IMG/VR virus record: IMGVR_UViG_3300014502_000001
Location: 28,772-92,771 of that record
Source: a virus
Strand: one strand, 5' to 3'
Length of the DNA stretch: 64,000 nucleotides
The translations under genes and the position numbers were made by a program. Under the pieces are notes generated by a model. That model was not told the origin of the DNA and ran no database searches. It worked only from the letters and a program-made list of their open reading frames with translations. The number at the start of each line of letters is the position of its first letter. Position 1 is the stretch's first letter. Below are positions 4,913-16,064 of the stretch, piece after piece.

Positions 4913-5419
4913 TTATGCCTTTGACGTGTTACGGCCCGGACCCATCTCTGGCTCATTCTCGGAATTCGGCTTGCGGATATAAAGTGTGGAGTCAGCTTGG
5001 ATGCGCATGTTCGATGCAAGCGTCACCAGCATATCCTTGCGGTGACGAAACGCCTCTTTAATAGCGCCTAGCAATCCCACATTTTTACGCGCCACATTCA
5101 CTCTGAGAACTGCCGCGATATAGTCCTCGTCAACCTTGACACTGTTGGCCACCAAATTTTCAGTGACCTTGCCCATCGATGCCAGCTGCTCACGATATTT
5201 CCCATCCAGGGAAGCTGTCGTTGTGTCCAGCTGGAGTTTTGCCTCCGCCAGTGCGGCCTCGGCCATTTCTCCGAGCACCGCATAATAAGCGTAAAGAGAC
5301 GGCTGGTCCCTTAGCTCATTGTTGATCTCCTCCTCTGATAATTTTAATTCGTCCTCATAATCCAGATTGACGGTCTGTTCCTCTGAGATGATGAGAGTCA
5401 GCGGTCCGAGCTTTTCCAT
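4913..5419 (-). CDS. UvsY-like recombination mediator
   Basis: Helical 168-aa protein with QPSLYAYY and EAFRHRKDML.L..N.R pattern; next to SSB and RecA. Confidence 0.7.
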   Translation of the reverse strand: MEKLGPLTLIISEEQTVNLDYEDELKLSEEEINNELRDQPSLYAYYAVLGEMAEAALAEAKLQLDTTTASLDGKYREQLASMGKVTENLVANSVKVDEDYIAAVLRVNVARKNVGLLGAIKEAFRHRKDMLVTLASNMRIQADSTLYIRKPNSENEPEMGPGRNTSKA

Positions 5420-5747: not shown

Positions 5748-5775
5748 ATTATACTGTTCCCCAGCTTTTATTCAA
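5748..5775 (-). promoter_or_regulatory. sigma70-like promoter TTGAAT-16-TATAAT upstream of the recombination genes
   Basis: Minus strand reads TTGAAT aaaagctggggaacag TATAAT, followed by RBS and ATG. Confidence 0.6.
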
Positions 5776-6330
5776 CCGGAATAATGCGCAAAAACATATC
5801 TGAAAACACCTTCACCGCCGCGTCCAACTCGGCCCTATGACTAGCATCATAGCTAACCATTGAAGGGTGGATACAATAGACCAGCCACGCACCCAGCGAC
5901 TCACTCCATTCAGCCGTGCCGTTACGATCCATAATGCTAGCCTTATTGTCACCTGTGACCCAATGAAGCGCTGTTTTGCCAAGCGACAATATCAGCCTTG
6001 GCTTTTGCACCGCTATTTCTTTCCTGAGCCACTGAGCACTGCAAAACGCAGGAACGCGCAGATCAACAATCTTATTATCCTTGGGTCTACATTTCAGAAC
6101 GTTGGTCACCCAGAAAAGATCTCTGCTCAGTCCATGCTTATCCAGAGAGCCCCAGAGCGTCCTACCCGCCTTGCCTACAAATGGAAGACCAGAAGCGTCC
6201 TCATCAGCGCCTGGAGCTTCACCAATAATCATGGTCTGGAATATGCCCGCTGAAAAGGGTGTTGGTCTTTTGCATATCTTGTACGCTGGGCAAAGCTCGC
6301 ACTTCTGAATATCAGCGGCCAGATTTATGG
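5768..6330 (-). other. Fused family-4 (Fe-S) uracil-DNA glycosylase domain of DnaE (boundary approximate)
   Basis: CELC, IIGEAPGADED, PFVGKAG, TNVLKCRP, FC, LGKTA, IHPS, all in frame with the polymerase. Confidence 0.9.
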
Positions 6331-9300
6331 CCTCACGGCGTGTGTCAACATACGGCACTATGCCTCTGTAATCAAGCATTCCCAGATCGCCCTTTTTAAT
6401 GTAATCCATAAATTGGAATCGATCCATGAATATGTTTGACGTTTTGGCTGGCTTATTGGCACGCATGATGATCATACGGCTAGCAATTTCTTCAATCTCG
6501 CCCTTTAGCTCTGAATGATATAGCTTGCCAGTCACCGTTGAATAGGTCAGAGAAGTGTCGTCTCTAAATATGCCATAGCAGCCGCCCAGGTCTGACGCAT
6601 ATCCTTTAACATCCACATCACTGCCCGTGCCGTGCGACTGTTCCACCTTTTGCCTGAATCCAAACTTGATCTCATCATATTTGCCAATGTGATAAGAGTA
6701 TTCCGGTATGGCCTCGTTCTCTCGGCCGGACAGATATGAAAGCTTCTTCACGCGGAAGTGTCTGCTCAGCAGCTCCACAAGAGCCTTATTCTGGGTGAGA
6801 TATTCCTCTGGCATTTCATAGGCTAGCACGTCTGTCTCGACATATGCAGAAGCGTCAATATCCTTATATTGCTTCTCGCTGGTGGGAAACTTTTTCTTAG
6901 TCTCAAGATGCAGAACAAGCTTTTTGCGATCCTCTTCAGATATGATTGAATCCAGAGCCTTGGAGCGCAGCAGGACTCTGATCTTTCCGATGTTGATCAA
7001 GCGCCTAGGAATATTGGCCGCAAAGTCAAATATGTCCTCAAATTTACCGCCGTGCGCCTCCCGCGCCTTTACCAGCTCCAGGGCGGAGTTGGTACTGATA
7101 CCTTTGATGATATCAAAGCCGCCGCGCAGCACGCCTGTATCTTCAATCGTCCATGAATATCCCGAGCAGTTAATGTCGGGAGATTTGATCTTCATGCCAT
7201 GACGCTGAGCATCAGACAACAGTGGCACGATGTCATCGTCCGAGGCTCGTACCAGAGTAGCATGGAAAAACTCTGTGGGATAATATACCTTTAACCACAT
7301 CGTCCAATATCCCAGCATCGTATATTCAACCGAGTGAGACTTATTGAAGCCATATGAATTATGGCTGACAAAATTGTTCGCGATGAAATTTGCAGGCTCT
7401 TCTTCCATCTCCATATCATAGGTCTCTCTCTCGCCTATAAACTTCTTCTCCACAATCTCCTCATCCTGAGTGAAATATCCTACACGATAGCGCCTGAACA
7501 AAGCGCTGTCAGTGTACGCTCTGTGATGCTTTCTGCAAAGAAGCATCGTGTTGTCCTCGGAATTGTCGGTCGTGTCGCCATTGATATGATGCATTTCAGG
7601 AAAACTCCCGGAGCCACAGACCTGGCAGCGACCACCATACTGATCCACAAGATGCTCACGACGCGCTTTTTCCTCATTAGTCGGACCCTCGCCTTTTCTG
7701 AATCTAGGACAAGTCTGGCCAAAGGACCCCGAGCCATATCCTTCTCCGTGTAATTTCTTCGGCAATTTCAGATCGCTGACTCTGATTCTGTCACCGACAC
7801 TGATCTCAGAAACTGTCTTCCACTCTCCACCAACCATAAAATGGTGCTCAGCGCTAGCGCGAACTGTTTTGTTACCGGCTGTCCTTATCAGATATACAGG
7901 CTTCATCCCTGTCTTCCATACTCTCTTTATCGTATTGTAACGGACAAATCCATCATCATGCATCGATAGAATTTTCAAGCCACGACGCTTGAAATTATAA
8001 TTATCCTGATACTTATACGCCTCCTCAATAGTCATCTCGGAATCTTTGTGCTGATTAGAAGCACACCTGTATATTTTTGTATCACCAGTCAGGCATCCGA
8101 AGAATTTCATCAGCGTAAAAACCTTCTGGGCATCAGCCACCGACATGGTTCCAAGCTTTTGAACGCCCGCCAGCCAGTCTTTTCTGAATGTCTCAAACTT
8201 ATCCTGGCCCTCAGATTTAGAAACTACCTTTCTGATGACATCCACCGTGCGCCAGGGGATGCCAGAAAGCTTATTCAGAATCCTCATCATCTGCTCTTGA
8301 TAAAGAACGATGCCATATGTCTCGCCCAGCAGCTCTTTCATCTGAGCATTGATATAAGTTGGCTTTTCCACGCCGTCTTTATAAAGAATGAATTTGCTAG
8401 CCATACCGCTGCGCAGCGTGCCAGGTCTAAATAATGAATTCACCTGCACGAGCTCGTTGAAATTTTTAGGCTTAAAGTTGCGGATATACTGAATCATGCC
8501 CGCTGAGCCAAACTGAAATATGCCCGCCGTATCAGCCTTTGTAAAAGCCTCAAGCACTTTTGGGTCATCCAGCGGCAGCGTTGAATAATCAGCGACCACA
8601 TTGTGACGGCGCTTTATCTCCTCTTTAGCTAGGCGCAGGATATTCAGCGTCTTCAGACCCAGAGCGTCTATCTTCATTACGCCGGCAAATTCAATATCAT
8701 GCTTGTCCCAGTTGACCGCTAAATCGCCAGACTTGGTTTTCACCACAACACATTTGTGGCCTGAATATAAGTCCTCGACATCCACAACCAGACCCGCCGC
8801 GTGAACACCTTTAGTCTTAATGTTACCTTCGATCTTTTTGCAGATCTGGATAACATAGGGATATTTCTTATTAAACTCCTTAGCATTTTCGAACAGTGCC
8901 ACTGTGTCCTCAACAGAAAAGTCAGCTCGCGCATCGCCGCCTGACCTGACCAGAATCTGTTTGGCTATTTGATCCACCTCAACCAGCGGCACCGAGAACA
9001 CTCGTGACACGTCACGCACTACGCCGCGCCCCTTCATCGTGGAAAAGGTGCTCACAGCCGTCACAGAACGCTCACCATATTTGTCACGCATGTGCTGAAT
9101 AACACGGTCGCGCTCAGCATCCTCAAAATCCAAATCGATATCTGGCAGATCGTGACGCTCTGGGGAAATGAAGCGCTCAAACATCAGCCCATACTCGAGT
9201 GGATTCACGTCGGTGATGCCCAGCAAATATGCCACCAGACTTCCACCCACAGAGCCGCGTCCAGGACCCACCATACAGCCATTGTGTTTAGCCCACAGAA

Positions 9301-10315
9301 CCATTTCCTGAACAAGCAGAAAATATTCCGCAAAGCCTAGCTTGATGATCTCTCCCAATTCATATTCACAGCGCTCTACCACTTCCTCTGTACCCAGGGA
9401 CTCAACATTCTCTATGACGTTGAAACACTGCTCACGCAAATATGCGCCAGGATCTTCACGCGCTTCCTCATAGGCTAGCGGCACACTGACCTTGCCCGCC
9501 TTAAATTCCCATGTGCACTTAGCCGCCACCTCATCCCAGATCTCTGCCATCATCAGCTCTGAGTTCTTGAACCCAAGCTCCTGCGCACAGACCACCATTT
9601 CCTCATATGTTTTAAGATGCAGATCAGCCATATCTGCGGGCGCGGGCTCGTTAGGTAGCATCTTCTGGTTGAAGCTCAAGCGCCTTATGACCTCACGCGC
9701 TTGCCAGTCCTCTGGCTTTATATAATGGACATCACCAGTGAATATGATCTTACCACCCATCAGCTCCTGCATATCTCTGAGCAGTTGACTATACTCCCTC
9801 TGGGGAAGATAGTTCTTGAGCATTGGAGCTTCCCAATAAAAGTCGTCACCAAATTTATCCATGATCTGCGGAACCAGGTCACCCATATTTGGATGAGCCA
9901 GCACACCCTCTGTGCAAGCCGTCAAATATACACAGTCCTGTATCTCGCTCAAGAGATATTTCCAGTCAATACGCGGACGGATATAAAAGCCTTCTGTATT
10001 GGCCTTTGTTAAGGCACGCATGATGGAGCTAAAGCCGTTGCTATTTTTGGCCAGCAGCACAGCATGCCAGCGCCGCTTATCGCTGCGGTCAGCCAAATCA
10101 TCAACGACATAAAACTCGCAACCCAAAATGGGATTTGCGCCTGCCTTTTTAACGGTCTGATAAAACTGAATAGCTCCATCCACCGTTCCATGATCAGTTA
10201 AGGCTATGTCCTTAATGCCATATCCCTTGATCACAGCATCAAGCTGATCAATGCGAATGATGGAATCTTGAATCGAGAACTCTGAATGGAAATGGAAAGC
10301 GCTAACAGGCTTCAT
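5768..10315 (-). CDS. dnaE: DNA polymerase III alpha (DnaE, family C) with intein and C-terminal family-4 uracil-DNA glycosylase domain
   Basis: PHP motifs HFHSEFS, TDHG, GCEFY, GDVH; GRGSVGGSLVAY; PDIDLDF; HAAG; KIDALGL; YQEQ; YGFNKSH; C-terminal CELC..GEAPG..FVG..KCRP..HPS. Confidence 0.96.
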   Translation of the reverse strand: MKPVSAFHFHSEFSIQDSIIRIDQLDAVIKGYGIKDIALTDHGTVDGAIQFYQTVKKAGANPILGCEFYVVDDLADRSDKRRWHAVLLAKNSNGFSSIMRALTKANTEGFYIRPRIDWKYLLSEIQDCVYLTACTEGVLAHPNMGDLVPQIMDKFGDDFYWEAPMLKNYLPQREYSQLLRDMQELMGGKIIFTGDVHYIKPEDWQAREVIRRLSFNQKMLPNEPAPADMADLHLKTYEEMVVCAQELGFKNSELMMAEIWDEVAAKCTWEFKAGKVSVPLAYEEAREDPGAYLREQCFNVIENVESLGTEEVVERCEYELGEIIKLGFAEYFLLVQEMVLWAKHNGCMVGPGRGSVGGSLVAYLLGITDVNPLEYGLMFERFISPERHDLPDIDLDFEDAERDRVIQHMRDKYGERSVTAVSTFSTMKGRGVVRDVSRVFSVPLVEVDQIAKQILVRSGGDARADFSVEDTVALFENAKEFNKKYPYVIQICKKIEGNIKTKGVHAAGLVVDVEDLYSGHKCVVVKTKSGDLAVNWDKHDIEFAGVMKIDALGLKTLNILRLAKEEIKRRHNVVADYSTLPLDDPKVLEAFTKADTAGIFQFGSAGMIQYIRNFKPKNFNELVQVNSLFRPGTLRSGMASKFILYKDGVEKPTYINAQMKELLGETYGIVLYQEQMMRILNKLSGIPWRTVDVIRKVVSKSEGQDKFETFRKDWLAGVQKLGTMSVADAQKVFTLMKFFGCLTGDTKIYRCASNQHKDSEMTIEEAYKYQDNYNFKRRGLKILSMHDDGFVRYNTIKRVWKTGMKPVYLIRTAGNKTVRASAEHHFMVGGEWKTVSEISVGDRIRVSDLKLPKKLHGEGYGSGSFGQTCPRFRKGEGPTNEEKARREHLVDQYGGRCQVCGSGSFPEMHHINGDTTDNSEDNTMLLCRKHHRAYTDSALFRRYRVGYFTQDEEIVEKKFIGERETYDMEMEEEPANFIANNFVSHNSYGFNKSHSVEYTMLGYWTMWLKVYYPTEFFHATLVRASDDDIVPLLSDAQRHGMKIKSPDINCSGYSWTIEDTGVLRGGFDIIKGISTNSALELVKAREAHGGKFEDIFDFAANIPRRLINIGKIRVLLRSKALDSIISEEDRKKLVLHLETKKKFPTSEKQYKDIDASAYVETDVLAYEMPEEYLTQNKALVELLSRHFRVKKLSYLSGRENEAIPEYSYHIGKYDEIKFGFRQKVEQSHGTGSDVDVKGYASDLGGCYGIFRDDTSLTYSTVTGKLYHSELKGEIEEIASRMIIMRANKPAKTSNIFMDRFQFMDYIKKGDLGMLDYRGIVPYVDTRREAINLAADIQKCELCPAYKICKRPTPFSAGIFQTMIIGEAPGADEDASGLPFVGKAGRTLWGSLDKHGLSRDLFWVTNVLKCRPKDNKIVDLRVPAFCSAQWLRKEIAVQKPRLILSLGKTALHWVTGDNKASIMDRNGTAEWSESLGAWLVYCIHPSMVSYDASHRAELDAAVKVFSDMFLRIIPVE
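7358..8095 (-). mobile_element. Intein (246 aa) in DnaE carrying an HNH homing endonuclease
   Basis: KFFG|CLTGDT ... ASAEHHF (block B) ... CQVC..HHINGD..N..N..LLCRKHH ... TYDMEM..NFIANNFVSHN|SYGFNKSH; removing it restores KFFGSYGFNKSH. Confidence 0.95.
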
Positions 10316-11239: not shown

Positions 11240-11977
11240 TCAGCTCTTCACGAAATCTTTGATGCTCTGGACATATTTGCCTTCCACCGTTTCCAGCTTA
11301 GGCTTAAAGCCGCAGCCCTCGGCGTGAGGACAAAAGCCGATATGCTCGCACGGCTTTTTGAACATGGGCCTGAATACGTCACCCATTTTCAGGCACACTT
11401 CCTCAATCATCAGAGCACTGACTTCTCGAATTTCTCCCTGAGCCATCAGACAAAGGCGCGAGGATAAAAATGTCGAGAGATTGCGGAAGTTGATTGCCAT
11501 CGTAATGGGTGAATGGATATTCAGCGGTAAAAGGCCGCGTGCCACTTGCACCTTTTCACCACGCTGAATAAGATGATTGTAGATGTCTTCGACCTTGAGC
11601 ATGGATTGCTCATAGGCCATAGGATCTATAACGTCGGGAGGCGTATGGTAGTCACCCGCCGTAGCAAAGCCTTCCTTGCTCACCACGCGCAAACTCTGGA
11701 TGGAATATGCGGCGGTGCGGTGACGCGTGAGCTGCTGCTGAAAGGCACGACTCACATTTCTGAACAGCCAGTTGGTCAGGATGAATTCCTGCACGCCGCC
11801 CGTCAGCGGCTCGGCAGCCATGTACTCGACAAAATCATTTTCCAGCTGCCGACTGACATGGCCCATAAACAGCGGATCATCAGAAACTTGACCGTGCATG
11901 TTCTTAAAAGCGAACAGCATTGTCCTCAAAGGCTCCGGCGTAAAATTGAAAAGAATGACCTGTGCGGTCTTACTCAT
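11240..11977 (-). CDS. thyX: Flavin-dependent thymidylate synthase ThyX-like protein
   Basis: VSRAFQQQLTRHRTAAYSIQSLR (RHRx7S signature), ARGLLP, NFRNL..F...R, AQGEIR. Confidence 0.88.
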   Translation of the reverse strand: MSKTAQVILFNFTPEPLRTMLFAFKNMHGQVSDDPLFMGHVSRQLENDFVEYMAAEPLTGGVQEFILTNWLFRNVSRAFQQQLTRHRTAAYSIQSLRVVSKEGFATAGDYHTPPDVIDPMAYEQSMLKVEDIYNHLIQRGEKVQVARGLLPLNIHSPITMAINFRNLSTFLSSRLCLMAQGEIREVSALMIEEVCLKMGDVFRPMFKKPCEHIGFCPHAEGCGFKPKLETVEGKYVQSIKDFVKS

Positions 11978-12036: not shown

Positions 12037-12981
12037 CTATCGTTCCCACGACAATTTGACGGCTGCAGTATAAGGTTTTCCCCTTGAAGCCAGTCGCAAT
12101 ATCTTGTCGTCGCCAGGCAGCGGCTTGCGCGTCCGCTGAACAAGACCTATGCGCGGCTGCTTAGCGTCACAGCCTTTACAGACAGATATGTCACGCTGGC
12201 CCCAATAGAGCTTGCGCCGCGCCGCCGCGAATATGGGTGAGTCCCAGATCTTTTGTACGCCCTCTTTGGCCACGTTGCCTATTTTTAGCACACCTCTGAA
12301 ATCATTGCAACAAATGGCCACATTTCCGTCCCAGCGTATAGACAGCTCTCTGAAAGGAAGCACACACCGCTTGCCAGCCATTTTTTCATTGGGTGGAGCT
12401 CCGCAGCCGCAATGGTTGGACAGATATGAATGGGTGCCGCGCTTAGCCTTAGTGATATCGTCGATGATGACAAGAGTGTGATCATTCGGCCTGCGCCGCT
12501 TATGAGGATTAGCTATTTTTTCATCAGGATATAAACGCACATCAATAGCTGTCTCGCCAGCCAGAACCTGATCCAGGACATCAGCCACAGTCGTGCTGCC
12601 GGCATGACGATAGTCGCTCATGCCAATCGTGTTCAGGCCTGCTTGGAATATAGCGTTGATCTGCGCAGCGGCGTCCTTCACAAAGCCGTGACCGTTGGTC
12701 AGCATGAGCATGCTGGCCTTGGGCAACGCCGCCCTGAATATGGAGACGATCTCGTCCTTGTCAGGATTCAGGCTAGGCTCGCCGTGCATATTAAATTCAA
12801 TCCTGCTATTCCAGCCCGCCGCCGCTATGCTCTCAGCAATTTTCTGGGCAGTGGCTGGAGTCATATATTTGAAATCAGGACGCGTGCCTCTGATTCCATT
12901 TATGCCACAGTAGCTACACCGCCGCGAGCAGCCCTCTGTCAGCTCAACCTGGATGCTCCAAGGCGCTTTACTAGCCTTCAT
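12037..12981 (-). CDS. Radical SAM enzyme with SPASM/twitch domain
   Basis: CSRRCSYC (CxxxCxxC), HGEP, LTNG, C..PF..L.IRWDG.V.ICC.D..GN..IW..CKGC. Confidence 0.92.
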   Translation of the reverse strand: MKASKAPWSIQVELTEGCSRRCSYCGINGIRGTRPDFKYMTPATAQKIAESIAAAGWNSRIEFNMHGEPSLNPDKDEIVSIFRAALPKASMLMLTNGHGFVKDAAAQINAIFQAGLNTIGMSDYRHAGSTTVADVLDQVLAGETAIDVRLYPDEKIANPHKRRRPNDHTLVIIDDITKAKRGTHSYLSNHCGCGAPPNEKMAGKRCVLPFRELSIRWDGNVAICCNDFRGVLKIGNVAKEGVQKIWDSPIFAAARRKLYWGQRDISVCKGCDAKQPRIGLVQRTRKPLPGDDKILRLASRGKPYTAAVKLSWER

Positions 12982-13319
12982 GCGAGAGCCTTTTTTTTGA
13001 GCTCCTGCTGCTCGTAAAGCTTGGCAACGACTCTGGCTGCAGCACCCTGGCCCAGATCCCGATCATATCCCCACTCCTCAAACTGATCAGGATTTTCGAG
13101 ATTGACTTTCATGACTCGTCCGTACAGATAATCGAATTTTTTGCTTGGCCCCATGCCAGGATAATCAGGCAGAGTTTGTTTCCCTTCCAGCAGCTCAGCG
13201 GCCTGTTCCCTGGTCATATCCCCAGGACGAGCCTGCAGAAAGCCCATCCCCTGGACATGCGATGCGTTATACAGTGCGGCCAGAACATCAGCGGGCAGAA
13301 GTCCTTTTGTCGAAATCAT
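12978..13319 (-). CDS. Hypothetical phage protein (VLAALYN..GMG..FDYLYGRVMKV..YDRD.G.G type)
   Basis: Start reassigned to ATG 13319 (ATGA overlap, GGAG RBS). Confidence 0.7.
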   Translation of the reverse strand: MISTKGLLPADVLAALYNASHVQGMGFLQARPGDMTREQAAELLEGKQTLPDYPGMGPSKKFDYLYGRVMKVNLENPDQFEEWGYDRDLGQGAAARVVAKLYEQQELKKKALA

Positions 13320-14293
13320 GATTGGTTCTCCTTGGATTTTTGCTGTTCCATTTTCTTCAGCCAGGTAGGAACATATATGACCTTTTTTGTGGCCAGGTCG
13401 ATCATAGGTCGCTGGCTCATTGTGGCCCAGCGATCCGACTTCATGCGCATTTCCTGCATGTAGTTGCAAACGTCTTTTGCAAAATTGCCCGTCTCTTTGT
13501 GAAAGGTATTCCACATCAGATCCAGCCACCGCGTGCCACCCGCGAAATATGGCGACCGCCCTAGCTGCTCAATTTCACAATGGCGCGTAAAAGCGCAGCG
13601 GCTGTTTGTGTACCACTTAGGCGAGAAAAATGCATTGACGTCGATATCACGCATGCCAAAGCCTAGACCAGGATTATACCAGTGATAGGCGCAGCCCGCG
13701 TAAAGAACATATCCTCGCACGTTGGCAATTTTCTTAGGATTCTTTTTGTGCAGGAACTCTTCCATCATAGATATGGCTTTCTTCCGAATGCGCGTCAGAT
13801 TCTTTTTGTCCTGATGCCAGTCGTAATTGCGATACGTGCTGAGTGTTTCAGCATCATATATTTTCTCTTCCAGCTGTGGATTGCCCAGCTTCACGATAAA
13901 CTCTTTCAGCTTAACTGGATTACCGGCAGGGTGTTTGCCATATCTGACAATGGTGGGGAATCCAGGCTTGACCGGGATGTTGGGATATTTCACCACATAG
14001 TCCACGTCATATAGCAGCGCTAGCTGGCGCATCTGATCCACCATTTCATAGCCCTTACGCGGGTGGATATAGTACCACAGAAAAACAAACTTGCGTGCCA
14101 TGCTAGTCAGCAGATCGAACATGGGCTTGCCATGCTCGTCCTGCGCATAAACGTGATCCTCGCCATCAATGTCGTTGACGACATAAACCTTAGACTCTGG
14201 GAAATGATCCTGAAATTTGACCGCCATCGCGATCGTCACATCCAGAATCTTTTCCTCGTCCTCATCAGGATTAACCACAATCACATCATTCAT
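13316..14293 (-). CDS. Two-domain protein; C-terminal part may be a Pol-beta-superfamily nucleotidyltransferase
   Basis: YAGCAYH...GMRDIDVNAFF resembles the hG[GS]x9-13DhDh NTase motif; later candidate third acidic residue in WLDLM. Confidence 0.5.
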   Translation of the reverse strand: MNDVIVVNPDEDEEKILDVTIAMAVKFQDHFPESKVYVVNDIDGEDHVYAQDEHGKPMFDLLTSMARKFVFLWYYIHPRKGYEMVDQMRQLALLYDVDYVVKYPNIPVKPGFPTIVRYGKHPAGNPVKLKEFIVKLGNPQLEEKIYDAETLSTYRNYDWHQDKKNLTRIRKKAISMMEEFLHKKNPKKIANVRGYVLYAGCAYHWYNPGLGFGMRDIDVNAFFSPKWYTNSRCAFTRHCEIEQLGRSPYFAGGTRWLDLMWNTFHKETGNFAKDVCNYMQEMRMKSDRWATMSQRPMIDLATKKVIYVPTWLKKMEQQKSKENQS

Positions 14294-15519
14294 TTGTACT
14301 TCTCCACGACCTTAGCAGATTTTTCCCAATACATTTTTTCAAAGTCCGCTGTATCAAAACCAAACAGCAGATATATTGAAAGTAGGAACTTGAAGATATC
14401 CGTCAGCTCCTCAAGGATCCTTTCCCTGTCCAGCTTTACCGCACCAGGCTTGCTGCCGAACTTCCAGTTGATGGTGTCCAGGAAGTCATTGCTCTCGCTG
14501 AATAGATGGAGAACGTAGTTTTTAGCCGCCCGTTGGACGGCCTCTAAATCTGGCGCATAGCTAACAAACTTCCTGTTGAACGCTTTCTGATCGCTGAATA
14601 TGCTCTCCATAAAAAATTTATTGGAGCTGCGCTGAATAACTGCCTTCATCGTGATGTCAGGATTCCACTCGCCATAGCGCCCGAGGAACATCACGTTGGG
14701 TGGAGCTATGTTTTCATGGCTGCGCAGAATCCGAGCTCCAGGCATAATAATGGAATCCTGAAAAGGCAAAGAACCTTCAATGGCGATGACGTCTCCTTGT
14801 AGCACCTTGGAACGCCGCACTCGATCAAAGCCAAATTTCTCCTCAGGGAAATATACCATGGACTCTTCGGGCAGCTCCGGATAGCCACATCCTAGCCACT
14901 GGTCATCTGACATCGTGCCCGTATAAAGTGGAAACGACATCAGCACCTTATGCTCGGCGTGTGGGCCTTCATAAATCTTCCAGAATACATTCGCAGGAAT
15001 CGTACTCACCAGATGGCTGTATTCCAGCGCCTTATCATTATCCAGAACAATCTGCTTTTCAGATATGGAGACAACCTTTCTGTTAATCACTCTTTTCTCA
15101 GCCAGCCTATAGTGAAGCAAATCCAGCAGTGTTTTGGCACTAAGATGATATGTGTGCATAAGGCCGCGATCACCGCTCACGTATGGGCCGGCAAGGATGT
15201 CCTCAGCAGGGAATAAAGACGGTGGCCGCTCATGGCCGCTGAGCTTTTTCTTCATCAGGTCACGCTTTACATCATCAGGTGGTTCACCCTGATTATATTT
15301 TCCGTCCTTGAAATATCCGATGGTGATGTCCAACTGCGACGAGCTTATATCCAGGTCAGCCAGGAACTCGTCGCACGCCTTACACTTAGGCAGGATAAGG
15401 CTGTGTTGAAAGCTAGCCACGTCCGACTGCGCGCCCGCCGCTGGAGCAATTCTGGTGTACTCTGGATTGTAAAACTGAAAAATTTTAGCACTCAACCCAT
15501 TACCAAGTATAATCTTCAT
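14290..15519 (-). CDS. FAD-dependent oxidoreductase (UDP-Gal mutase/protoporphyrinogen-oxidase-like) fused to an all-alpha dUTPase/dCTPase (MazG-like) domain
   Basis: MKIILGNGLS (Rossmann), LVSTIP, FLGRYGEW; C-terminal Q..FN...SESNDFLDTINWK...ILEELTDIFKF..Y..K. Start at ATG 15519 (TGATG overlap, AGGAG RBS). Confidence 0.78.
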   Translation of the reverse strand: MKIILGNGLSAKIFQFYNPEYTRIAPAAGAQSDVASFQHSLILPKCKACDEFLADLDISSSQLDITIGYFKDGKYNQGEPPDDVKRDLMKKKLSGHERPPSLFPAEDILAGPYVSGDRGLMHTYHLSAKTLLDLLHYRLAEKRVINRKVVSISEKQIVLDNDKALEYSHLVSTIPANVFWKIYEGPHAEHKVLMSFPLYTGTMSDDQWLGCGYPELPEESMVYFPEEKFGFDRVRRSKVLQGDVIAIEGSLPFQDSIIMPGARILRSHENIAPPNVMFLGRYGEWNPDITMKAVIQRSSNKFFMESIFSDQKAFNRKFVSYAPDLEAVQRAAKNYVLHLFSESNDFLDTINWKFGSKPGAVKLDRERILEELTDIFKFLLSIYLLFGFDTADFEKMYWEKSAKVVEKYK

Positions 15520-16064
15520 CACACTTCTCCTTGCAAAAGAATCGCTGGAGAAAAATACTCTCCGACTATAATCCATCTGAAATATTCCTTCCAGCGTTTT
15601 CTATTTGAATTAACTTTAATATTACAACCAGTACAAAGCTCTATCAAATTATTAGACCAATTATGCTTTTTATTGTAATCAATATGATGAACAGGATGTC
15701 TTCTTTTTCCCTCTTTAGTGTTACAAAGCTGACATATATGACCGTCACGATCACGAATTTGCTCTCGCAATTCAGGCGTCCATCTTGTACCATATTTTTC
15801 AGAGCTCTTGCCGCCCAGCCAGCTAGGATGATTCACAGGATCTACAAAACGTCGTATCTGAGCTAAACTCTGTTTTGCAATTGTTTCTTCACTATGCTGC
15901 TTACCGAGATTACCGTGTGCATTCACATTACCAAGTTTTGCAAGACTCATCTTTGCTCGTGTATTCTTGCTGTGTTTTCTGCCATAGAAAGGATTATTTG
16001 CACCAGCAGTAATCAGACTTATTTTAATCTTGGCCTCTTTGCTGTGGTGACTTCCCTTTCTCAC
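15519..16064 (-). CDS. Free-standing HNH homing endonuclease with NUMOD3-like repeats
   Basis: GRKHS..TRAKMS repeats; IRDRDGHICQLC, VHHIDYNK..N..NLI.LC..C; AT-rich. Confidence 0.9.
   Translation of the reverse strand: MRKGSHHSKEAKIKISLITAGANNPFYGRKHSKNTRAKMSLAKLGNVNAHGNLGKQHSEETIAKQSLAQIRRFVDPVNHPSWLGGKSSEKYGTRWTPELREQIRDRDGHICQLCNTKEGKRRHPVHHIDYNKKHNWSNNLIELCTGCNIKVNSNRKRWKEYFRWIIVGEYFSPAILLQGEV

What the first reader, a model, noticed from the sequence alone, without database searches (positions are those of the whole stretch)
5768..10315. Family C polymerase (DnaE) with a C-terminal family-4 UDG domain
Seen: an uninterrupted frame from PHP and polymerase domains into a UDG with all four candidate Fe-S cysteines and intact GEAPG, N and HPS motifs. 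Established: UDG-like domains are fused N-terminally to the family A polymerase of SPO1-like phages, and vaccinia UDG serves as a processivity subunit. I do not recall a characterised C-terminal UDG on DnaE. Inference: replication-coupled uracil excision or clamp-independent processivity (no clamp gene in this window). With the ThyX-like and dUTPase-like genes it could form an anti-uracil set, for example against cytidine-deaminase defences, or it could read a modified base.
Basis: partly seen in the sequence, partly recalled or inferred. Interest (0 to 1): 0.7.

Follow-up and report, generated by a model that had tools for sequence, protein, structure and literature searches.

The report
Phage DnaE polymerase with UDG tail
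An uncultured 93-kb phage's only DNA polymerase, a bacterial-type DnaE, really does end in a complete-looking iron-sulfur uracil-removing domain, but this fusion was noted in print in 2014 and is common in uncultured phages, so it is a well-preserved member of a known, biochemically untested kind.

Summary
ORF 5768-10315 (minus strand, 1515 aa) is one open frame with these domains in order:
- PHP
- Pol III alpha palm and fingers
- a 246-aa HNH intein (residues 741-986)
- (HhH)2
- an OB fold
- a family-4 UDG

The UDG keeps every signature: CxxC, GEAPG, FVGKAG, TNxxKCRP, a fourth Cys and HPS.

The architecture is not new. Timinskas et al. 2014 described a DnaE variant with a UDG domain. Cultured phages (nickie, RHEph10, SSU5) carry degenerate versions. 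At least 81 of the 150 nearest 50%-identity cluster representatives are DnaE-UDG fusions. This scan has also flagged the same fusion before, in at least 35 other genomes.

Three things are specific to this gene and its closest relatives:
- The DnaE OB domain is retained, and only the tau-binding tail is replaced.
- The catalytic and Fe-S residues are conserved in 94-100% of 109 DnaE-linked relatives.
- ThyX lies upstream in 21 of 33 related loci.

The complete genome has no match to the Pfam models searched for another polymerase (families A, B and X), a beta clamp, DnaQ, an AP endonuclease or a ligase.

The most likely function is replication-coupled uracil excision in cis, by analogy with the UDG-PolA fusions characterised in 2026. 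No activity has been shown for any DnaE-UDG. Interest is moderate to low.

The parts
5768..10315 (-). Whole gene: DnaE-type (C-family) polymerase with intein, OB and C-terminal UDG; 1515 aa including the intein, 1269 aa after splicing
   Evidence: Single ORF; Pfam and PHROG matches.
9722..10297 (-). PHP domain (residues 7-198) with all nine metal-ligand positions filled: H8, H10, D17, H42, E67, H84, C134, D195, H197
   Evidence: Pfam PF02811; alignment with homologs and motif positions. Proofreading activity is inferred, not shown.
8657..9442 (-). Pol III alpha palm/thumb (residues 292-553) with the catalytic Asp motifs PDIDLDF (391-397) and KIDALGL (548-554)
   Evidence: PF07733, E 4e-75; motif positions.
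8096..8650 (-). Fingers domain, N-extein part (residues 556-740), ending ...KFFG
   Evidence: PF17657; extein junction.
7358..8095 (-). Intein (residues 741-986, 246 aa): Cys1, penultimate His, terminal Asn, +1 Ser. It is inserted in the conserved F-G/S-Y-G-F-N-K-S-H-S fingers motif.
   Evidence: PF14890. Intein-less homologs read KFFG-SYGFNKSHS without a gap.
7514..7627 (-). HNH homing-endonuclease core inside the intein (residues about 897-934; CxxC plus HH...N...HH)
   Evidence: HNH PHROG families; motif positions.
6920..7357 (-). C-extein: rest of the fingers plus the (HhH)2 duplex-binding domain (residues 987-1132)
   Evidence: PF14579 at 1040-1132.
6395..6826 (-). OB-fold domain (residues about 1164-1307), the retained DnaE OB domain
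   Evidence: AF2 model with pLDDT mostly above 90. Best structural match is the OB domain of M. tuberculosis DnaE1 (7PU7 residues 988-1099; Z 10.1, rmsd 2.8 over 108 residues), followed by other OB folds. Pfam finds nothing here.
5771..6343 (-). Family-4 (Fe-S) uracil-DNA glycosylase domain (residues about 1325-1515) in place of the tau-binding C-terminal domain
   Evidence: PF03167, 84 bits; phmmer E 7e-21 to 1UI0; Foldseek TM 0.87 to 1UI0; VIA Z 26.2 to 1L9G. Motifs are intact.
11240..11977 (-). ThyX (flavin-dependent thymidylate synthase) with the RHR-x7-S signature, the conserved upstream partner
   Evidence: PF02511, E 2e-28; motif read from the translation; present upstream of DnaE-UDG in 21 of 33 related loci.

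Best explanation
This is the replicative DNA polymerase of a complete 92.8-kb tailed phage, and the only polymerase found in its genome.

It is a DnaE-type C-family enzyme with these features:
- The PHP site is intact and is the likely built-in proofreader (inferred).
- The catalytic Asp triad is intact.
- A self-splicing HNH intein in the fingers must be removed to give the 1269-aa enzyme (inferred from canonical splice residues).
- The (HhH)2 and OB domains are retained.
- The tau-binding C-terminal domain of cellular DnaE is replaced by a complete family-4 iron-sulfur uracil-DNA glycosylase.

I think the UDG is catalytically active and works in cis with the polymerase. It sits directly behind the OB domain, which in cellular DnaE binds single-stranded template (established knowledge). 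I therefore think it most likely inspects template DNA near the fork and removes uracil during replication. Inspection of the fresh duplex is less likely. ThyX would keep the dUTP/dTTP ratio low. The abasic sites would have to be handled by host enzymes or by the phage's FEN and recombination module.

**Shown:** domain content, motif integrity, fold, conservation and synteny.

**Inferred:** glycosylase activity, its coupling to synthesis, and which strand it reads.
For: **Domains and motifs:**

**Structure**
- The AF2 model of residues 1140-1515 has mean pLDDT 86.5 and pTM 0.82, so OB and UDG are modelled as one confidently packed unit.
- The UDG matches solved family-4 UDGs with TM 0.87 and Z 26.
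- The OB best matches the OB of Mtb DnaE1, Z 10.1.

**Purifying selection on catalysis.** Among 109 DnaE-linked UDG domains, each a representative of a 50%-identity cluster:
- motif-A Glu is kept in 103
- the TN Asn is kept in 104
- the motif-B His is kept in 104
- the four Cys are kept in 102, 106, 107 and 109

**The fusion is real and ancient**
- At least 81 of the 150 best representatives carry both DnaE and UDG.
- All 33 related IMG/VR loci match the UDG; 28 also match the DnaE C-extein and 27 the N-extein, the rest being cut at a contig end.

**Context**
- ThyX is upstream in 21 of 33 loci.
- The complete genome gave no match to the Pfam models searched for family-A, -B or -X polymerases, and none for a separate UDG.

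**Precedent.** UDG-PolA fusions of phages YerA41 and phiLo excise template dU ahead of the active site (PMC13697223). The phiLo UDG domain (9QHS) matches this one at Z 15.8.
Against: - No activity has been measured for any DnaE-UDG.
- Relatives in cultured phages and phage-plasmids (nickie, RHEph10, SSU5) keep the domain but have lost motif A, the Asn and the His. The domain therefore also has some non-catalytic value.
- C-family replicases are generally blocked by abasic sites (general knowledge). Excision in the template could stall this enzyme, unlike the PolA case.
- The genome gave no match to the Pfam models searched for EndoIV- or ExoIII-type AP endonucleases, PolX, or ATP- or NAD-dependent ligases, so base excision repair cannot be completed by phage genes alone.
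- The 109 relatives were retrieved by similarity to an intact UDG, which biases the conservation count upward.
- I had no model coordinates, so the position of the UDG relative to the polymerase active site is untested.
Confidence: 0.6

Rival explanations
1. The UDG fold serves mainly as a DNA-binding, processivity or scaffold module that replaces the clamp/tau-binding tail. Vaccinia D4 works this way with A20-E9, and the same has been proposed for the inactive UDG of N4-like PolA. Glycosylase chemistry would be dispensable.
For: - The SSU5, nickie and RHEph10 DnaE proteins keep a UDG-like C-terminal domain with dead motifs: LDGPS, TDAPN or LDNAN in place of GEAPG, and NPx in place of HPS.
- The complete genome has no beta-clamp match.
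- A regular-expression scan of the protein found no Q-x-x-L-F type clamp-binding motif.
- Vaccinia D4 appears among the structural matches, Z 8.3.
Against: - Catalytic Glu, Asn and His and all four Fe-S cysteines are conserved in 94-100% of 109 diverged DnaE-linked relatives. A pure scaffold would not need this.
- The dead versions form a separate long-branched group (quick tree).
- The two roles are not mutually exclusive.
Confidence: 0.2
2. The phage replaces or hypermodifies a pyrimidine. [quoted passage not shown]
For: - A gene cluster lies between the helicase and the polymerase. It holds ThyX, a radical SAM/SPASM protein, a 428-aa protein with a C-terminal NTP-pyrophosphohydrolase-like domain, and unknown ORFs.
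- Active UDG-PolA fusions occur in T-hypermodified phages (PMC13697223).
Against: - The radical SAM gene and the two unknown ORFs have no homolog in any of the 33 related DnaE-UDG loci. The NTP-PPase fusion appears in only 2. The fusion therefore does not depend on them.
- ThyX carries the canonical RHR-x7-S signature, which argues for ordinary dTMP synthesis.
- No hydroxymethylase, DNA kinase or glycosyl/amino-transfer signature was identified next to it.
Confidence: 0.15
3. The fusion is an assembly chimera or a frameshift artefact that joins separate dnaE and udg genes.
For: Raw reads could not be inspected.
Against: - The frame is uninterrupted.
- The junction is confidently modelled.
- The same domain order is found in dozens of independent assemblies and in cultured phage genomes.
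Confidence: 0.01

Closest known systems
'DnaEX' variant of Pol III alpha with a PF03167 UDG domain (Timinskas, Balvociute, Timinskas & Venclovas, NAR 2014, PMC3919608). It was reported as an extra polymerase in some Yersinia pestis and Salmonella enterica strains. Equating it with the SSU5-type phage-plasmid DnaE is my inference.
   Same: PHP-Pol3-(HhH)2 core with a C-terminal family-4-type UDG fold. The SSU5 C-terminal 217 aa are homologous to the nickie and RHEph10 UDG-like domains (E 4e-25 and 5e-23), which Pfam scores as UDG.
   Different: - The published variant has both OB and CTD replaced. In the cultured members I checked, the catalytic motifs and most Fe-S cysteines are lost.
- The window protein keeps the OB domain and every catalytic and Fe-S residue, and it carries an intein.
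- Context also differs: CobT/CobS lie upstream in SSU5, nickie and RHEph10, against ThyX upstream here.
UDG-PolA fusions: SP15-like polymerases of phages YerA41 and phiLo (Missoury et al., NAR 2026, PMC13697223; PDB 9QHS), plus SPO1-like and N4-like (Czernecki et al., NAR 2023, PMC10201439)
   Same: A family-4 UDG fused in cis to a phage replicative polymerase. Some members have intact catalytic motifs and others degenerate ones. Template dU excision ahead of the active site is shown experimentally for YerA41 and phiLo. The phiLo UDG superposes on this domain at Z 15.8.
   Different: - The polymerase family is unrelated (A versus C).
- The UDG is N-terminal there and C-terminal here.
- Those phages also encode PolX and a ligase; this genome has no Pfam match to either.
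- In a quick, weakly resolved tree the PolA-linked UDGs group apart from most C-terminal DnaE-linked ones.
Free-standing family-4 UDGs (T. thermophilus UDGA 1UI0, T. maritima TM0511 1L9G/1VK2, S. tokodaii 4ZBX)
   Same: Same fold, 4Fe-4S cysteines, GEAPG, FVGKAG, TN..KCRP and HPS motifs; about 26-29% identity.
   Different: Those are single-domain repair enzymes of cells. This one is the last domain of a replicase.
Poxvirus D4/E4 UDG in the polymerase holoenzyme (vaccinia E9-A20-D4, 8Q3R)
   Same: A UDG physically attached to a viral replicase.
   Different: It is a family-1 UDG, is bound in trans through A20 to a B-family polymerase, and is only a weak structural match (Z 8.3).

Membership tests
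C-family DNA polymerase, DnaE type | PHP domain followed by the Pol-beta-like palm with three catalytic Asp, then fingers and (HhH)2 | tested here: met
   Pfam PF02811, PF07733, PF17657 and PF14579, all far above cut-off. The Asp motifs PDIDLDF and KIDALGL are present.
C-family DNA polymerase, DnaE type | C-terminal OB fold after (HhH)2 | tested here: met
   AF2 model. Best match is the OB of Mtb DnaE1 (7PU7), Z 10.1. Pfam itself does not detect it.
C-family DNA polymerase, DnaE type | Tau-binding C-terminal domain and internal beta-clamp-binding motif (DnaE1 replicases) | tested here: not met
   A UDG domain occupies the C-terminus. No Q-x-x-[LM]-F-like motif was found. The genome has no beta-clamp match. 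The protein is therefore a DnaE homolog but not a canonical DnaE1.
Family-4 uracil-DNA glycosylase | Alpha/beta UDG fold | tested here: met
   Foldseek TM 0.87, rmsd 2.5 to 1UI0; VIA Z 26.2 to 1L9G.
Family-4 uracil-DNA glycosylase | Motif A GE(A/G)PG and motif B HP(S/A), plus the Asn of the TN..KC motif and the Phe of FVG | tested here: met
   GEAPG 1365-1369, F1379, N1405 and HPS 1483-1485, aligned to 1UI0 and TM0511.
Family-4 uracil-DNA glycosylase | Four cysteines that bind a 4Fe-4S cluster | tested here: met
   C1339, C1342, C1409 and C1425 align with the cluster cysteines of 1UI0. They are conserved in 102-109 of 109 relatives. Cluster binding itself was not tested.
Family-4 uracil-DNA glycosylase | Uracil excision activity on ssDNA and dsDNA | not testable with these tools
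   Needs an enzyme assay.
UdgX (covalent uracil-DNA binding protein) | GEQPG motif A and the inserted R-loop with KRRIH (His109) | tested here: not met
   Motif A is GEAPG. Only 13 residues separate KCRP from the next Cys, as in 1UI0, so there is no insertion. Canonical family-4 UDGs score higher than UdgX by sequence (E 7e-21 versus about 2e-13).
Class 1 intein with homing endonuclease | N-terminal Cys, C-terminal His-Asn, +1 Ser/Thr/Cys, and an embedded nuclease; the host motif is restored on removal | tested here: met
   C741, H985-N986 and S987; HNH core at 897-934. Intein-less homologs are contiguous across the site. Splicing itself was not tested.

The most novel reading that the evidence does not exclude
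The OB-UDG tail makes this the first C-family replicase with read-ahead uracil surveillance. The retained OB domain would feed the single-stranded template into an active Fe-S UDG a few nucleotides ahead of the polymerase site. Uracil introduced by host dCTP- or cytosine-deaminating defences, or by a high dUTP pool, would then be removed or sensed during replication. ThyX would act as the pool-side partner, and the phage recombination module would rescue the resulting lesions.
Probability: 0.3. Interest if true: 0.6.

Novelty: new member of a known kind. Interest (0 to 1): 0.35.

Why it matters
Coupling of uracil excision to the replicase has just been shown for phage A-family polymerases. It has long been known, in trans, for poxviruses.

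If the intact UDG on DnaE is active, the same solution has evolved on all three major replicase families. It would then be a general viral answer to uracil in DNA, including host defences that raise dUTP or deaminate cytosine.

Intact and dead UDG tails coexist on homologous DnaE proteins. This gives a natural pair for separating the catalytic role from the structural one. The enzyme may also interest polymerase engineers, as a clamp-independent, self-proofreading polymerase that removes uracil.

None of this is specific to this window. It is one of well over a hundred such genes.

Tried and rejected
- **Nucleotide search against cultured phages:** megablast of the gene found nothing.
- **Protein search against cultured phages:** no record covers more than 72% of the protein.
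- **Pfam on the 196-aa linker** gave nothing even at E 1. The OB fold was found only by structure.
- **Literature:** searches for 'DnaE' plus 'UDG domain', and related terms, found no biochemical study. Kazlauskas et al. 2016 does not mention the fusion.
- **Genome-contig scan:** With the single protein it returned only an unrelated free UDG in a Thaumarchaeota MAG. I therefore have no host assignment and no prophage copies.
- **Conserved 168-aa gene downstream:** I considered it as a polymerase accessory subunit, because homologs occur in 33 of the 34 sources compared (33 related loci plus the window). I rejected this. Its model is a long helical hairpin whose best matches are T4 UvsY, and it sits between the polymerase and the gp32-like SSB and RecA genes. 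A sequence-profile search of the PDB did not find UvsY.
- **UdgX-type covalent binder:** rejected on motif grounds (see the membership test).
- **Whole-protein fold:** not run. The protein exceeds the size limit with its intein, an edited intein-free sequence may not be submitted, and model coordinates are not returned. The position of the UDG relative to the active site could not have been read.
- **UDG tree:** this is a quick, poorly resolved tree on a similarity-biased sample without cellular outgroups. I use it only to say that the N-terminal and C-terminal fusions do not intermix.
Full report
**What is there**

The window is bases 28772-92771 of a 92,771-bp IMG/VR viral record with direct terminal repeats, rated complete. 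Nearly all long ORFs lie on the minus strand.

ORF 5768-10315 (minus strand) is a single 1515-codon frame. Pfam finds the following:

| Domain | Residues | E-value |
|---|---|---|
| PHP | 7-144 | 1e-28 |
| DNA_pol3_alpha | 292-553 | 4e-75 |
| finger | 556-720 | 1e-45 |
| Intein_splicing | 760-986 | 1e-13 |
| HHH_6 | 1040-1132 | 3e-14 |
| UDG | 1362-1493 | 1e-23 |

PHROGs adds phage DNA polymerase (E 7e-265) and HNH endonuclease families.

**The polymerase part**

- The nine PHP metal-ligand positions are all filled, and they are conserved in homologs. They are H8, H10, D17, H42, E67, H84, C134, D195 and H197.
- The genome has no DnaQ-like exonuclease. PHP-based proofreading is therefore the likely arrangement; this is an inference from what is known of PHP-proofreading DnaE enzymes.
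- The catalytic Asp motifs are present.
- Residues 741-986 are an intein with Cys1, His-Asn at its end, +1 Ser and an HNH core at about 897-934.
- The intein splits the conserved fingers motif. Intein-less homologs read KFFG-SYGFNKSHS without interruption.
- From memory, this site is two residues upstream of the cyanobacterial split DnaE intein site. I did not test that.
- 20 of the 150 closest representatives also match this intein.

**The tail**

I folded residues 1140-1515 with 21 metagenomic homologs. The model has mean pLDDT 86.5 and pTM 0.82.

- Residues about 1164-1307 form a five-stranded OB fold. Its best match is the OB domain of M. tuberculosis DnaE1 (7PU7 residues 988-1099; Z 10.1, rmsd 2.8, 108 aligned). 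Other OB folds follow: Stn1, PolD DP1, AsnRS and PolC.
- Residues about 1325-1515 superpose on family-4 UDGs: TM 0.87 to 1UI0 and Z 26.2 to 1L9G.
- By sequence the closest solved proteins are T. thermophilus UDGA and T. maritima TM0511 (E 7e-21 and 4e-20). CxxC, GEAPG, FVGKAG, TN..KCRP, the fourth Cys and HPS are all aligned.
- The UdgX R-loop and GEQPG motif are absent.

The domain order is therefore PHP-Pol3-[intein]-(HhH)2-OB-UDG. Only the tau-binding C-terminal domain of cellular DnaE has been replaced.

**How common it is, and whether it is known**

- *Literature.* Timinskas et al. [quoted passage not shown]
- *Cultured phages.* I confirmed the fusion in Pseudomonas phage nickie (1130 aa; UDG 978-1107, 47 bits) and Rhizobium phage RHEph10 gp048 (1137 aa; 39 bits). 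The GenBank note on gp048 already says 'uracil-DNA glycosylase-like'.
- *SSU5.* The C-terminal 217 aa of the Salmonella phage-plasmid SSU5 polymerase are homologous to those of nickie and RHEph10 (E 4e-25 and 5e-23), although Pfam no longer detects the domain.
- *These cultured versions are degenerate.* GEAPG becomes LDGPS, TDAPN or LDNAN. HPS becomes NPx. The Asn and most of the cysteines are lost.
- *Metagenomes.* 25 clusters of 1085-1490 aa share the full Pfam architecture with UDG at the C-terminus.
- *Exhaustive HMMER search.* At least 81 of the 150 best 50%-identity representatives contain both DnaE and UDG. Most of the remainder are fragments that carry DnaE-C or OB next to the UDG.
- *N-terminal fusions.* UDG-DnaE fusions with the UDG at the N-terminus also exist: P0022, P0057 and P0064.
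- *Earlier work in this scan.* The scan has reported the same fusion in at least 35 other genomes, and follow-ups reached the same verdict. I saw those notes after reaching mine.

**Evidence on function**

Among 109 DnaE-linked UDG domains, conservation is as follows:

| Residue | Conserved in |
|---|---|
| Motif-A Glu | 103 |
| Asn | 104 |
| Motif-B His | 104 |
| Four cysteines | 102, 106, 107, 109 |
| Uracil-stacking Phe | 86 (Leu in 18) |

This argues for selection on chemistry and not only on the fold. The set is biased, because it was retrieved with an intact UDG.

In 33 related IMG/VR loci the gene order is conserved:
- ThyX is upstream in 21 loci, which is nearly every locus with enough upstream sequence.
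- DnaE-OB-UDG comes next.
- A 150-220-aa helical protein follows; homologs occur in 33 of the 34 sources compared (33 loci plus the window).
- Downstream are a gp32-like SSB, RecA, FEN and Mre11/SbcC.

The radical SAM/SPASM gene and two unknown ORFs of this window have no counterpart in those loci. The flavoprotein-like/NTP-pyrophosphohydrolase fusion appears in only 2.

The complete genome gave no match to the Pfam models searched for the following:
- a beta clamp or DnaQ;
- EndoIV- or ExoIII-type AP endonucleases;
- ATP- or NAD-dependent ligases;
- family-A, -B or -X polymerases;
- trimeric dUTPase;
- a second UDG.

No clamp-binding motif is visible in the protein.

**Mechanism**

The closest experimentally understood system is the UDG-PolA fusion of phages YerA41 and phiLo. 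In it, the UDG receives the 5' template strand through a guiding channel and excises dU ahead of the active site. The polymerase then bypasses the abasic site with dA (PMC13697223).

By analogy, I consider replication-coupled uracil excision in cis the most likely function, at about 0.6 for an active, polymerase-coupled UDG. Three things support this: the OB domain that precedes the UDG binds single-stranded template in cellular DnaE, the motifs are conserved, and ThyX is linked.

Three points weaken the template-strand version:
- C-family polymerases are generally blocked by abasic sites.
- The phage encodes no downstream base-excision-repair enzymes.
- I could not read domain positions from the models.

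The dead tails in SSU5, nickie and RHEph10 show that the domain also has a non-catalytic value. That supports the processivity/scaffold rival (0.2), which may coexist with catalysis. The modified-base reading (0.15) rests on neighbouring genes that do not travel with the fusion.

**Verdict**

- The architecture is already catalogued and abundant, but it is biochemically uncharacterised.
- This copy is a well-preserved member that retains the OB domain, carries an intein and has an intact active site.
- I rate it a new member of a known kind, of moderate to low interest in itself.
- It is a reasonable candidate for the first enzymology of a C-family polymerase-glycosylase.

Noticed in passing
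window 4913-5419 (-): This 168-aa helical protein lies two genes downstream of the polymerase, and homologs occur in 33 of the 34 sources compared (33 related DnaE-UDG loci plus the window). Pfam finds nothing, and only PHROGs of unknown function match. The AF2 model (pLDDT 80) is a long helical hairpin whose top Foldseek matches are T4 UvsY (4ZWT, 4ZWR; TM 0.65-0.69, E 0.04-0.2). With the gp32-like SSB and RecA genes next to it, it is probably a UvsY-like recombination mediator. In phage nickie the homologous region is the C-terminal part of a 426-aa protein right after dnaE.
   Followed up: partly
window 7358-8095 (-): A 246-aa intein with an HNH (not LAGLIDADG) nuclease is inserted in the F-G/S-Y-G-F-N-K-S-H-S fingers motif of DnaE. 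Related inteins occur at the same place in 6 of the 33 related loci, and 20 of the 150 nearest representatives match the intein. One relative (P0098, 2788 aa) appears to carry several inteins.
   Followed up: partly
window 12037-15576 (-): This stretch holds a radical SAM/SPASM protein (12037-12981), two unknown ORFs (12978-13529 and 13316-14293), and a 428-aa protein with a Rossmann-like GxGxxA N-terminus and a weak dUTPase_2 / NTP-pyrophosphohydrolase C-terminus. These genes are not conserved next to DnaE-UDG in related loci. Another note of this scan flags them as a candidate base-modification pathway.
   Followed up: partly
P0022, P0057, P0064/P0066 (metagenomic proteins): DnaE proteins with the family-4 UDG at the N-terminus, ahead of PHP, and an OB fold at the C-terminus. 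UDG has therefore been fused to C-family polymerases at both ends. In a quick tree these N-terminal UDGs group with the PolA-linked ones.
   Followed up: partly
L009:3313-4833 and 17 other related loci: A short-chain dehydrogenase/reductase domain protein recurs upstream of DnaE-UDG, near ThyX, in 18 related loci. It is absent from this window.
   Followed up: no
L037/L038 (Salmonella phage SSU5), L002 (nickie), L003 (RHEph10): The dead-UDG DnaE genes of these cultured phages and phage-plasmids are all preceded by CobT/CobS-like genes. They are followed by the same FEN-RecA-Mre11-SbcC series as in this window.
   Followed up: no
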